From Eledone cirrhosa (Eukaryota): a stretch of DNA of 64,000 nucleotides. Below, piece after piece: positions 5,219 through 10,129 of the stretch; position 1 is the first letter of the stretch, and the number at the start of each line of letters is the position of its first letter. The DNA lies in the NCBI GenBank assembly GCA_964016885.1, contig OZ024741.1:300886001-300950000 (forward strand), written 5' to 3'. The notes beneath the pieces were generated by a model that had not been told where the DNA came from, searched no databases, and worked only from the letters and a program-made list of their open reading frames with translations. Position numbers and translations under genes: made by a program.

Positions 5219-5792
5219 CTAAGTCCAAAATTAAGATAAATGAATTAAATGAATTTAATCTAAATCGAAATCATGGGTGTCATGACATAAGGCATGCGCC
5301 ATATATCCTGAGAATTTAAGCTCAAAGATAAATAAACCTGAGCATATTATAATAACTAGAGATTGATTAACATATAAAAATACATGAATAATCACAGGAG
5401 ATAATTTAAGCTTGCGTGTAACCGCGCATAGCTAGTTTAGGCAATATTTACCTTTAAGAGTGATTAACTTTCCTTGTATATATCCCATTAAAGAAATATA
5501 TTTCACCAATTAATCAGATGGTAAGTCACGGAAAGTGGATATCATTGGATTGTCAACAAGGAAATAGATAATTATCCAGCCATTCGTGCTTACAGAGCGA
5601 GATCATATCTTCAACTATCCGTTACCACGTGTTGCGTCCACACAAGATAGCGGTTTCGTTTCAGTGGCGTGAAAAGGTAATCGACAATTAGAAATAGCAG
5701 TCAAAATTCTTCTCAACAGAAATAGCTCTACAATTAAGGAGCCGTATATAGATTAAATTCTTTTAATTCATTTATCTTAATTTTGGACTTAG
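5219..5792. mobile_element. ~570-bp element with ~28-bp terminal inverted repeats in (TA)n; possibly a distant relative of ORF-less family D
   Basis: CTAAGTCCAAAATTAAGATAAATGAATTA ... TAATTCATTTATCTTAATTTTGGACTTAG. Internal TTGCGTGTAACCGC resembles TTGCGTGCAACCGC at ~40605. Confidence 0.6.
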
Positions 5793-5799
5793 ATATATA

Positions 5800-8219
5800 T
5801 ATACGTGGCTCTGGTCCACCCGTTCCATCTATCTGTGTGGGTTTTCTTGGCCATTGAGGTAATGGTAGGTGGTCTGCTTCTTGCTGGTCTTGTAGAGCAC
5901 AGGTTGCTAAGGCCGTATGTATCTAGATAATTATTACTATAGGTAAGTTTAAGTAGGAGTCCCAGCTCACTGGTATCAATCCCACGGAATTCAACATTGC
6001 TTTCACTGATCATTTCTACGCATTTCCCCACAGCAAAATCCACGTCAATAGATGGATACAGGGACACAACATCCATACTACTTATTATGCAGTTTGTTAG
6101 GTCCCTAGATCGGTTACTCTCGCCGATTCTGCTGAGGAGGTCCTCCGTGCTGTCACATACATCTGGGGACATTTCAATGATGGGGCGTATGATCAGGGAG
6201 AGGAAGTATGAAAGTCTGTAGTTACTAGCAATGTTAGCTCCACAGACTGGCTGTGTTGGTGGTCCTGTGGCAGGGTCACTGCTCGTTTTATGGTCTTTTC
6301 GAAGCCCATACAACGCTGGCACGTCATTGTTCCAGGCCTGGAAGTTGTTGGCAATCCTTTTGTTGCCTCATTATATTTGTCCACATCATCATATCGGCAT
6401 TGAGGGCTTTTTCCCTATCCTCATGCTCTTGTGGTGTTACTTCTCTTGTATTAATGATGTGGGGTTGCATTGCCTGGATGTAGTTTGGCAGACTCTCAAC
6501 CGACATTCTGCCAGACTTGTCTGTTGGAAAGCATGCTATCTCTCCATTACGCGAGCGCTGCATGAGCTTACGCAAGCCATTTGCAGATTTTTCTCCCAGT
6601 TGCTGGGCCTCCATTCTATTATGTTTCTTGCTATACTGTTCTATAATATTTCTAAGTTAAATCTAGCTATACTAAATTGTGCTTCTGTTTGTTCATCGAC
6701 CTGCGACGGCAATTGCGTGCGTTTGTTAAAAGCTAAAGTCGTGGCGTGGACTCGTCGCAGGTCGAACGACTTATCGGAAGGATTATAAAAAGTAGAGTTC
6801 CAGGCTGCTGCTTTATGTGTACTAATGCTATTGTTATTGTTAGTTGTGTTGTTTCTATTTCTATTTTTTCCACCAACAGCCTCGTGGTTGTTTCTATGTC
6901 TCTCATTAATACTCCTGACTCTTTCCTCTGGCTCATTGTTATTATCTACTCTATTTTGTGTGTCTGTGTGTTCGTCCTGGTTATTTTCTCTGTCCATAGT
7001 CTCCCTTCTTTCAATCCTATTACCTTCCCTTATTTCTCTGCTACCGTCATTACCTGTTTTCTGTGTCTGTGTGTTTGTTAAGATTGTGGTGGTGGTGAGA
7101 GGCATTGAATGTGTGTGTGTTGTTGTTGATGTGTGCTGTTGTTGATGTGTGTTGTTGTTGTTGTCTCCGTGTATGTTATTATTGTTGTATGTGTTGTTTT
7201 GTTGTTTGTGTCTGCGTGTCTGTTGTTGTTGTTTCTGAGTATGTTATTATTGTTGATGTGTGTGTTGTTGTTATTGTTGCTTGTGTCTGAGTGTCTGTTG
7301 TTGTTGGGATGTGTGCTGTATATGTGTGTGTGTGTACTAATGTTGTTACTTTTGTTTTTTTGTTTTTGAGGCTCCAACGTAATTTTGTAAATGATTTTTC
7401 TATTTCTGACAAGCATTTAATCATATTTACCTTATTAAATGTGGCATACTTAGGTGGTAGTTGTAATACTGATAATTCATCAGAGTCGACCGTAGTGTTG
7501 CCGTATATATTTGTGTTGTTGTTGTTGAATTCATCTGTTAATGAGATGTCGGCCATATTTATACCGTCAATTTTGTCGGGATATATATTGATATTCTCTA
7601 AAGTATTTTGATTTAGTTTTATCTGTTTGAGCCACTTTAGTTTCTTGTTAAAGTGCTTGTCACATTCTTGAACAATGTACTTTTCTTCGGGATATATAAG
7701 GTTTATAAATATTATTTTTTTCTCTTGGTGTGGTGATCTTAGTTATTTCTTGTATTAGGTTACGCTTATGTTTTTCTTGATGACTTAATTCTCTATAAAT
7801 CTTCTTTTTTATGTTCAGAATTAGTGTTCGTTTTAGCCTATCTGCTTGTTTTTTGGTGAGCTGTAATCTTCTTACATCGGTGTTGATGGTGTTGGTGTAA
7901 ACTCGGGACGAGGCACATTCTTTTATGAAGTATAGTTGTCGAGATGTTATTGTTTTTCATAGACAACAGAACATGGTGGTTTTCAGTATCTTGTTAGCCT
8001 GGCTAAGGCTTACTATATTTCGTTTCTGAATTTGTTTAGCAAGATTCTTCATCTGAAAACGTGTGTTGAAACCGATATTGTTATACTTTGGGAGGGTCAT
8101 GTTGCCAATAAGAAACACACGCATCAGCTGCTTTCACTTCAATTTATTATAATAAATTTATAAATTTAGGAATTTAGGAATTTCCGGTTCGTTGGTTGTT
8201 TCCACAACCAGATGATTGT
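5800..8219 (-). mobile_element. Inverted 5' half of a PLE (pLTR tail, N-terminal region, RT up to motif A), frameshifted
   Basis: Minus ORFs contain LQLPPKYA, PTDKSG, YGLRKDHK, PVCGAN and SMDVVSLYPSID. ATG near 8052. 8075-8219 is the reverse complement of 9007-9150. Confidence 0.85.
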
Positions 8220-9142
8220 AATGTTCATCGATACAACCCCTAGAGGTGAATTAGCTTGCAAATTTAGAAGGGCCCTAGATAAACATAAACTCAATATTAA
8301 GATAGTAGAAAGACCAGGTACCTCCATAAAAACACTTATTAGCAATGCATAACCTTTTCAAAGACCTCCCTGTATAGATAGGAAATGTATAATCTGTAAA
8401 TTAAGCCCCCATATTAACTGTAAAACTAGAAATGTAGTATATAGCATAAGATGTACTGAAGGACAATGTAGAGATAAAAATATAGTGTACATAGGTGAGA
8501 CAGCTCGTAGTATAGGGGAACGGATATATGAACACTGCCGAGACCTTCAAGATAGTAAAGAACCATCTGTACTCTACCAACAAGCTAAAATAGAACATAA
8601 GGGTAAATTAGAGAACATAGAAATAAAAATAGAATCTACACACAGAAAAGACACAATGTTTAGACAAATCACAGAGGCAATAAACATAAATGAACTCCAA
8701 CCAAATTAAATAGAAAACATGAGTGGAACAGCAACATCACAACTTACAATTAAAGACAAAATGAAAACACACATGCACATAGAACAAACAACCAACCAGT
8801 AGCATGTAAATAAACAAATAAATAAACGAATATAAACACACACAGACACCCGGATGTAACACATGCGCAAACTAAGCACACAACACACACACAAAAACAA
8901 GATGGCGTAGGACAGAACAAAGGAGAGGCACAGAAACAAAGAAAAGAATCCCCAGTCACTGAAGATGTCACAGAATGTGTGACGAAAGAACTTTGACAAT
9001 ATATAAACAATCATCTGGTTGTGAACCAACCAACCAACCAGAAATTTATAAATTCCTAAATTTATAAATTTATTATAATAAATTGAAGTGAAAGCAGCTG
9101 GTGCGTGTGTTTCTTATTGGCAACATGACCCTCCCAAAGTAT

Positions 9143-9150
<8 letters not shown>
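8220..9150 (+). mobile_element. 3' half of the same PLE: Cys linker + GIY-YIG, 3' UTR, HHR, tail into (TA)n
   Basis: KIVERPG..PPCIDRKCIIC..NCKTRNVVYSIRC..YIGETARSIGERIYEH..RQITEAININELQP. Confidence 0.85.
8955..8997 (+). ncRNA. Minimal type I hammerhead ribozyme
   Basis: GTCA-CTGAAGA-T-GTCAC..GTGAC-GAA-AG AA CT-T-TGAC (CUU site). Confidence 0.7.

Positions 9151-9558: not shown

Positions 9559-9560
<2 letters not shown>
9366..9560 (+). mobile_element. Fold-back mini-element family F, copy 2 (older)
   Basis: Imperfect palindrome at 9366-9481 plus a tail that is reverse-complementary to 4667-4745. Confidence 0.8.
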
Positions 9561-9593
<33 letters not shown>

Positions 9594-9631
9594 TGGTTTA
9601 TTTACCATCTTTATTCTATATTTCCATCAAA

Positions 9632-9790
9632 ATGAGACTAAGCCTCTGATGAGTACCTGAGTCTCATGTGGTTTAAACTTAATCGATGGATTGCCTTCGA
9701 TGATAATCTTAATCGATAGATTGTCTTCGCTGATCGATTACATAGATCAATTTTTATCCATCTACAGGTATGAAATAGCGCTATAAGGTT
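9632..9790 (+). ncRNA. Type I hammerhead ribozyme with ~105-nt loop II and putative 8-bp pseudoknot
   Basis: AGCCT-CTGATGA-GTACCTG...CAGGTAT-GAA-ATAGCGCTAT-A-AGGTT. ATGAGACT (9632-9639) is complementary to AGTCTCAT (9660-9667). Confidence 0.75.
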
Positions 9791-10129
9791 TCACTTTTGA
9801 TTGCACCTTTGTCCGTATCTTCTACATGTTTTTGGTACATATATATATAATATACTGTGTTTCTTGTGCGATATATGGCTCTTTCAACTCTGTATATACA
9901 TATAATTCTTTATTTGGTTATTATGGCTCTGGAAATGAAAAAAGCTTGCTTATTGAGCTTACTTATATTAGCACAATATTCTAAACACATTTCATGTTTT
10001 GATTCATTATTTAGATATATATATATAAACCAACTGAACGGAAAGAGATGGGTGGTCACAGCCGACCGACCATGTGACAGGTTGCTCTGTGCTAAATGTT
10101 ACTTCACAGATGCACACACACAGACACAC

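What the first reader, a model, noticed from the sequence alone, without database searches (positions are those of the whole stretch)
9632..9790. Hammerhead with ~105-nt loop II and an 8-bp 5'-flank/loop-II pseudoknot
Seen: an intact CUGAUGA/GAAA core, 7-bp stem II GTACCTG/CAGGTAT, stem I AGCCT/AGGTT and palindromic stem III ATAGCGCTAT (AUA site). Loop II holds two copies of a ~27-nt repeat (CTTAATCGATRGATTGYCTTCG.TGAT). ATGAGACT just 5' of stem I is exactly complementary to the first 8 nt of loop II. Known: fast HHRs need stem I/loop II tertiary contacts. Inference: Watson-Crick pairing supplies that contact here. Motif scans with a short loop-II limit would miss this ribozyme.
Basis: partly seen in the sequence, partly recalled or inferred. 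Interest (0 to 1): 0.75.

Follow-up and report, generated by a model that had tools for sequence, protein, structure and literature searches.

The report
Long-insert, pseudoknotted hammerhead in mobile repeat
This is one old copy of a roughly 600-base non-coding repeat, present at hundreds of places in an animal genome and likely spread by Penelope-type retrotransposons, whose hammerhead (predicted self-cutting RNA) motif carries an unusually large insert and a predicted bracing helix; each feature has a precedent, and cutting is untested.

Summary
In detail: intact type I hammerhead core, stems I-III, a 105-nt loop II and a perfect 8-bp 5'-flank/loop-II complement; Rfam misses it. It is one decayed, 5'-truncated copy of a ~600-nt non-coding repeat (family F1; 338 candidates) that ends at a fixed point in (TA)n, with partial tandems and inversions typical of Penelope-driven retrozymes. 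The 'loop' is largely a folded insert; the 27-nt duplication is private to this copy (1 of 70). The pseudoknot shows no compensatory change in 70 F1 copies or 8 F2/F3 sequences. However, two other sequence groups (F2/F3, F5) have a different complementary pair at the same position; three further long-loop families do not. No copy starts at the cut site (0 of 30 F1, 0 of 30 F3). Stem I/II pseudoknots (about 40% of hammerheads) and dimer-type stem III are published. This scan has already noted long-armed and pseudoknotted hammerheads in other families of this genome. Verdict: new variant of a known kind; pseudoknot plausible, unproven.

The parts
9589..10013 (+). 5'-truncated copy of repeat family F1 (full monomer about 600 nt, non-coding), flanked by (TA)n on both sides
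   Evidence: blastn to other copies 73-78% over 9589-~10027; tail end 228 nt after the cut; TA arrays 9559-9593 and from ~10015
9632..9639 (+). 5' strand of predicted pseudoknot
   Evidence: exact complement of 9660-9667; duplex -9.3 kcal/mol; no covariation
9640..9645 (+). stem I, 5' strand
   Evidence: 6 bp with 9786-9791
9646..9652 (+). hammerhead core CUGAUGA (C3-A9)
   Evidence: sequence; N7 is U/A polymorphic in the family (28 of 70 A)
9653..9659 (+). stem II, 5' strand
   Evidence: pair probability 0.55-0.69
9660..9667 (+). 3' strand of predicted pseudoknot (first nucleotides of loop II)
   Evidence: left unpaired in the loop-only fold
9668..9764 (+). structured insert in loop II; its closing helix is damaged by a 3-nt deletion in this copy; holds a private 30-nt duplication (9674-9734)
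9765..9771 (+). stem II, 3' strand
9772..9785 (+). GAAA core, palindromic stem III (9775-9784), AUA triplet; predicted cut after 9785
   Evidence: hairpin not stable alone, self-duplex -13.1 kcal/mol
9786..9791 (+). stem I, 3' strand
9792..10013 (+). 3' tail of the unit, ending at the family's fixed 3' end
   Evidence: median 224 nt from cut to tail end in 23 copies

Best explanation
The motif is the type I hammerhead of an old, non-coding ~600-nt repeat that was likely mobilised by Penelope-like retrotransposon enzymes, and its 105-nt loop II is predicted to be a folded insert whose first 7-8 bases would pair with the 5' flank to brace stems I and II. Shown: anatomy, family, fixed 3' end in (TA)n, variable 5' ends, head-to-tail permutation, no ORF. 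Inferred: transcripts would cut after AUA only when two copies pair through the palindromic stem III (double hammerhead); unit-length RNA would then circularise or stay multimeric and be reverse-transcribed from a (TA)n break, starting about 224 nt downstream of the cut and running through it. The Watson-Crick brace would replace the usual loop-loop contact, which frees the rest of loop II to grow. This particular copy is probably a neutral relic with an intact core.
For: Family: 338 candidates, 40 scored, non-self hits 76-84% identical; 29 exact matches of a core pattern, control 0. Of 71 tail ends 26 run into TA/TG repeats, 21 into the unit's own start, 24 other (30 loci were chosen by the start segment, so the tandem share is inflated). 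Inverted second copies in several loci. Frequent shared variants fall at tolerated places: N7 (28 of 70), U4C (11; reported to keep viroid infectivity, PMC3088659), stem I A-U to G-U (13), and three pair-keeping changes in the insert's 7-bp closing helix (27, 19, 11 copies). Related design in young families F2 (1339 candidates, ~702-bp unit) and F3 (1566, ~1000 bp): 7 of 30 pairs change on both sides, in stems I, II, III and both insert hairpins. In 5 of 8 long-loop representatives (3 sequence groups) the best flank/loop helix starts at the first loop nucleotide, with a different sequence in each group. Pseudoknot precedent with compensatory rescue (PMC3088659); dimer model and circular-template model (PMC4209133).
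Against: No compensatory change in the pseudoknot: 0 of 8 pairs in 70 F1 copies (nor in any other F1 stem, as expected of copies decaying after insertion), 0 of 4 in 8 F2/F3 sequences, and 0 of 9 F2/F3 copies picked for a changed 3' strand had the matching change. 3 of 8 long-loop representatives (F4, F6, F7) show no such helix, F2, F3 and F5 are each only borderline (energy p 0.007-0.06), and F5's strand can also pair inside its loop. The active fold lies 12-16.5 kcal/mol above the minimum-energy fold before the brace (about -9.5) is counted; in the window copy the flank prefers the stem I 3' strand. 0 of 30 F1 and 0 of 30 F3 copies start at the cut. No autonomous partner identified. Only 40 of 70 copies keep an intact core.
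Confidence: 0.62

Rival explanations
1. Real hammerhead in the same repeat, but the 8-bp complement is not an activating brace: it is a by-product (for example of an old local duplication) or an alternative, inhibitory fold in which it replaces stem II, while the insert serves another role such as a binding site for the partner's reverse transcriptase.
For: No covariation; the non-knotted fold with this helix in place of stems I/II is only about 3 kcal/mol above the minimum in the window copy and is the favoured fold in F3 (probability 0.84); 3 of 8 long-loop families lack it; the flank also pairs with the stem I 3' strand (-8.6 against -9.6 kcal/mol).
Against: Same position with unrelated sequences in three groups; both strands are kept between F2 and F3 while neighbours diverge; ViennaRNA cannot form pseudoknots, so it must show the helices as alternatives.
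Confidence: 0.25
2. The unit is the orphaned terminal repeat (pLTR) of an autonomous Penelope-like element not yet located, not a self-standing retrozyme.
For: Stem II of 7-9 bp and stem I of 4-6 bp match PLE hammerheads (PMC4209133); PLE-type reading frames lie next to some copies; only 40 of 338 candidates were scored.
Against: The adjacent reading frames belong to different families and are separated by microsatellite or inversion junctions; in 30 loci picked by the unit's 5' segment the upstream DNA is the unit's own tail or unrelated sequence, never a coding 3' end.
Confidence: 0.1
3. Loop II is a spliceosomal intron whose removal gives a compact hammerhead.
For: The loop ends in a pyrimidine run plus CAG/G; PLEs carry introns near hammerheads (PMC4209133).
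Against: 0 genome matches for the spliced junction with up to 1 mismatch; weak donor site; the CAG is part of the 7-bp stem II; insert helices covary in F2/F3.
Confidence: 0.03

Closest known systems
Metazoan non-LTR retrozymes (Cervera and de la Pena 2020, PMC7229834, passages read; Li, Clavereau and Pollet 2026, bioRxiv 10.64898/2026.07.22.740005, part 1 of 5 read)
   Same: Non-coding repeat with one type I hammerhead per unit, head-to-tail permutation, link to Penelope-like elements.
   Different: Unit about 600 nt (F2 702, F3 about 1000) against 220-390 bp in the passages read; mostly dispersed truncated copies in (TA)n; loop II 78-136 nt; expression as circular RNA untested.
Pseudoknot-stabilised hammerheads, including the human C10orf118 ribozyme (Perreault et al. 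2011, PMC3088659; passages and section 3 part 2 read)
   Same: Watson-Crick helix between stem I and stem II peripheries in place of loop-loop contacts, found in all three types, about 40% of representatives.
   Different: Here 7-8 bp (5 bp in C10orf118, 6 bp in their tested construct) and followed by a 70-130-nt folded insert; not tested biochemically.
Hammerheads of Penelope-like elements (Cervera and de la Pena 2014, PMC4209133, parts 1-2 of 4; Craig et al. 2021, PMC8557442, passages and File S2)
   Same: Long stem II, short stem I, palindromic stem III predicted to need a dimer, position near a 3' end that inserts in (TA)n.
   Different: No reading frame in the unit; longest loop 2 in Craig File S2 is about 35 nt; a G-U closes stem II with no extra base after A9.
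Discontinuous Clec2 hammerhead (as described in PMC6155905, passage read)
   Same: Hammerhead with a large natural insertion that hides it from scans.
   Different: Type III, insertion of 150-1500 nt in helix I, in an mRNA 3' UTR; here type I, insertion in loop II, in a mobile repeat.

Membership tests
Type I hammerhead ribozyme | Core CUGANGA ... GAAA ... UH | tested here: met
   40 of 70 family copies intact
Type I hammerhead ribozyme | Three helices around the core, helix I open-ended | tested here: met
   6, 7 and 3 bp; stem III stable only as an intermolecular duplex; helices covary in the sister design F2/F3
Type I hammerhead ribozyme | [quoted passage not shown] | tested here: inconclusive
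   8-bp complement present, positional recurrence in 3 groups, no covariation
Type I hammerhead ribozyme | Site-specific self-cleavage | not testable with these tools
   no assay; 5' ends of genomic copies show no excess at the cut
Non-LTR retrozyme | No protein-coding capacity | tested here: met
   no shared reading frame in 30+30 loci
Non-LTR retrozyme | Head-to-tail units, each with a type I hammerhead | tested here: inconclusive
   F1: partial tandems (21 of 71 tail ends; 3 loci hold two cut sites), two complete hammerheads in direct tandem not seen and not searched for exhaustively; F2 has up to 3 units, F3 2 units
Non-LTR retrozyme | Expression as circular RNA | not testable with these tools
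   no RNA run listed
Autonomous Penelope-like element | RT plus GIY-YIG reading frame | tested here: not met
   none in the unit; neighbouring frames are from several unrelated families
Autonomous Penelope-like element | Insertion signature: fixed 3' end, (TA)n target, partial tandem, 5' inversion | tested here: met
Type-SGC non-circularly permuted hammerhead | Core blocks in permuted order | tested here: not met
   order is the classical type I order (definition in PMC10085705)

The most novel reading that the evidence does not exclude
Animal retrozymes have repeatedly evolved a hammerhead architecture in which a Watson-Crick brace at the very start of loop II replaces the loop-loop contact and turns loop II into a free cargo site for a 35-130-nt folded domain (possibly the docking site for the Penelope enzyme). 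Such ribozymes number in the thousands in this genome, are invisible to Rfam and to short-spacer descriptors, and may explain Penelope clades reported to have only 'half' hammerhead cores.
Probability: 0.3. Interest if true: 0.65.

Novelty: new variant of a known kind. Interest (0 to 1): 0.42.

Why it matters
If the brace and dimer model hold, hammerhead counts in animal genomes are underestimated, because published searches cap the stem II spacer (7-17 nt in Craig et al. 2021, who list eight 'half-core' cases at 35-50 nt). The young families F2 and F3 give clean, near-identical constructs to test how large an insert a fast hammerhead tolerates, and a natural scaffold for placing a domain in loop II without losing the tertiary contact. 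The window copy itself is probably a relic with no function.

Tried and rejected
Rfam at gathering and E-value thresholds: no hammerhead family hit. Search for the autonomous parent: reading frames beside copies L022, L038, L045 looked promising but are different families that share the (TA)n target; 30 loci of one such family had no long-loop hammerhead in their 3' UTR; Pfam gave only a weak GIY-YIG hit for 1 of 5 such fragments, so the clade label 'Neptune-like' is from recalled motifs. Covariation of the pseudoknot: none. Test of 5' ends at the cut site, a lead from earlier notes: 0 of 30 and 0 of 30 (one F3 copy starts within a few bases of the previous unit's cut but merges with a GA repeat). 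A cluster of 4 of 30 F1 5' ends 14-20 nt upstream of the cut is post hoc and may be microhomology with (TA)n; ends beyond about 450 nt are lower bounds. Intron idea: rejected. Expression: no RNA holder listed; the three contig runs laid say nothing on RNA. Ten 315-nt 'long loop' hits in L234 were dropped as artefacts of a 310-nt tandem array. Look-ups of earlier scan notes by sequence and by words were empty. Lunse et al. 2017 and Arkhipova et al. 2017 could not be read, and Perreault's descriptor file was not readable; long stem II variants may be described there.

Full report
Observation. The sequence shows a complete type I hammerhead at 9640-9791: stem I of 6 bp, core CUGAUGA, stem II of 7 bp, a 105-nt loop II, GAAA, a palindromic stem III and an AUA triplet with the predicted cut after 9785. 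The 8 nt before stem I are the exact complement of the first 8 nt of loop II. A descriptor for such motifs gave 1 hit and no long-loop hit in 600 kb of shuffled control. The 8-bp helix has p about 0.001 against shuffled flanks, a post hoc figure. Rfam finds nothing in the window at gathering score and no hammerhead family at E up to 10 around the site, so the remark that scans miss it holds for Rfam.

What it is part of. The stretch is one copy of a dispersed repeat in a 3.0-Gb animal genome: 338 candidates, 40 scored, other copies 76-84% identical. Earlier scan notes call the genome a cephalopod (not checked by me). The unit (F1) is about 600 nt: about 377 nt from its start to the cut (20 copies) plus a median 224 nt from the cut to a fixed 3' end (23 copies). 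Of 71 tail ends, 26 run into TA/TG repeats, 21 into the unit's own start and 24 into other sequence; the tandem share is inflated because 30 loci were chosen by the start segment. 5' ends vary and several loci have an inverted second copy. No reading frame belongs to the unit. Penelope-type frames lie beside a few copies but come from different families that share the (TA)n target. These are the marks given for Penelope-like elements in Craig et al. 2021 (PMC8557442, passages), on a non-coding unit, which fits the proposal that animal retrozymes are non-autonomous Penelope derivatives (bioRxiv 10.64898/2026.07.22.740005, part 1 of 5). The window copy covers 9589-10013, is 5'-truncated and sits between TA arrays.

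The loop. In 70 aligned copies loop II is 78-136 nt, median 108. Folded alone, the loop leaves its first 5-10 bases free and pairs most of the rest, in F1 and in the other families. In F1 a 7-bp helix closes the insert right after the pseudoknot strand; its three frequent variants (27, 19 and 11 copies) all keep pairing, though C-to-U and G-to-A changes are also the commonest mutations. In the window copy this helix is damaged by a 3-nt deletion.

The pseudoknot, for. Scanning fetched loci and 600 kb of evenly spaced genome samples gave further long-loop families. In 5 of 8 representatives, which form three sequence groups (F1; F2 and F3; F5a and F5b), the best flank/loop helix starts at the first loop nucleotide, with a different sequence in each group (8, 4-5 and 5-6 bp). 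F2 and F3 are young and abundant (1339 and 1566 candidates; 2100 exact matches of a shared pattern, control 0). Between them 7 of 30 pairs change on both sides, in stems I, II, III and both insert hairpins, while both pseudoknot strands are kept (8 related sequences that I chose, so these are a few events, not a probability). Perreault et al. 2011 (PMC3088659; passages and section 3 part 2) showed by disruption and rescue that such a helix gives fast cleavage and predicted it in about 40% of hammerheads of all three types.

The pseudoknot, against. No pair of it covaries: 0 of 8 in 70 F1 copies (the sample includes copies picked by patterns that fix part of the motif, and no F1 stem covaries either), 0 of 4 in F2/F3, and 0 of 9 copies picked for a changed 3' strand. 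Three of 8 representatives lack it, and the others are each borderline. Nearest-neighbour folding puts the active form 12-16.5 kcal/mol above the minimum in three F1 copies before the brace (about -9.5) is counted; in the window copy the flank prefers the 3' strand of stem I. The program cannot form pseudoknots, so this is a rough guide.

How it likely works. Stem III is not stable as a hairpin but forms a -13.1 kcal/mol self-duplex, so cleavage would likely need two copies, as proposed for Penelope hammerheads, which cut poorly in vitro (PMC4209133, parts 1-2 of 4). Brace plus dimer would roughly pay the folding cost (inference). Copies contain the cut site and 224 nt beyond it, so the template was circular or an uncut multimer; 0 of 30 F1 and 0 of 30 F3 copies begin at the cut, which fits a circle but equally fits a ribozyme that rarely cuts. 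Shared core variants are N7 (28 of 70) and U4C (11 of 70), the latter reported to keep enough activity for viroid infectivity; this hints at selection on the source elements. No RNA data were available. An intron reading was tested and found no spliced copy.

Comparison and novelty. It works like a non-LTR retrozyme with a pseudoknot-type hammerhead; membership of the hammerhead class is met on sequence and structure, cleavage untested. Pseudoknot braces, dimer-type stem III and a large natural insertion (Clec2, helix I; PMC6155905, passage) are each published. I did not find a type I hammerhead with a 70-130-nt loop II insert in the papers searched; the longest loop 2 in Craig File S2 is about 35 nt. 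Two relevant papers and one descriptor file could not be read, so this absence is soft. This scan has already noted long-armed and pseudoknotted hammerheads in other families of this genome, though not this sequence.

Verdict. Real feature, new variant of a known kind. The bolder reading, a recurring braced architecture that frees loop II for a cargo domain and hides thousands of ribozymes from standard scans, has probability about 0.3.

Noticed in passing
window 5789-9146: A Penelope-like element with an inverted 5' part: GIY-YIG domain at 8353-8706 (+; Pfam PF01541, E 5e-05), RT-like pieces on the minus strand, and a minimal hammerhead in its 3' UTR (core 8959-8965, predicted cut after 8993; read by eye).
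   Followed up: partly
window 58887 (+): A second, short-loop type I hammerhead of another repeat family.
   Followed up: no
L080:2091-2240 (-) and L189:8120-8267 (+): Young families F2 and F3 (2100 exact matches of a shared pattern, control 0) with 77-79-nt two-hairpin inserts; better test material than the window copy.
   Followed up: yes
L236:9470-9610 (-), L016:3036 (+): Family F5 (800 candidates): 35-nt loop II whose first bases can pair either with the 5' flank or inside the loop; possible switch.
   Followed up: partly
L187:6769 (+), L196 minus-strand position 2906: Hammerheads with 70- and 59-nt loop II and no flank/loop helix.
   Followed up: partly
F1 copies L002, L005, L015, L016, L024 and others: A sub-lineage with core U4C (11 of 70), mostly together with the stem I A-to-G change, spread as a group.
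   Followed up: partly
L234 (G000:C3:190000001-190010000): Array of at least 11 hammerheads at 310-nt spacing.
   Followed up: no
G000, 60 evenly spaced 10-kb stretches: 43 hammerhead-descriptor hits (53 less 10 artefacts) in 600 kb, 4 with loop II of 35 nt or more; one PLE endonuclease query had 64,381 candidates.
   Followed up: partly
F1 and F2 unit junctions (L004, L119): Both families have TTGTATTTA at the point where copies end and (TA)n begins; possible priming site.
   Followed up: no
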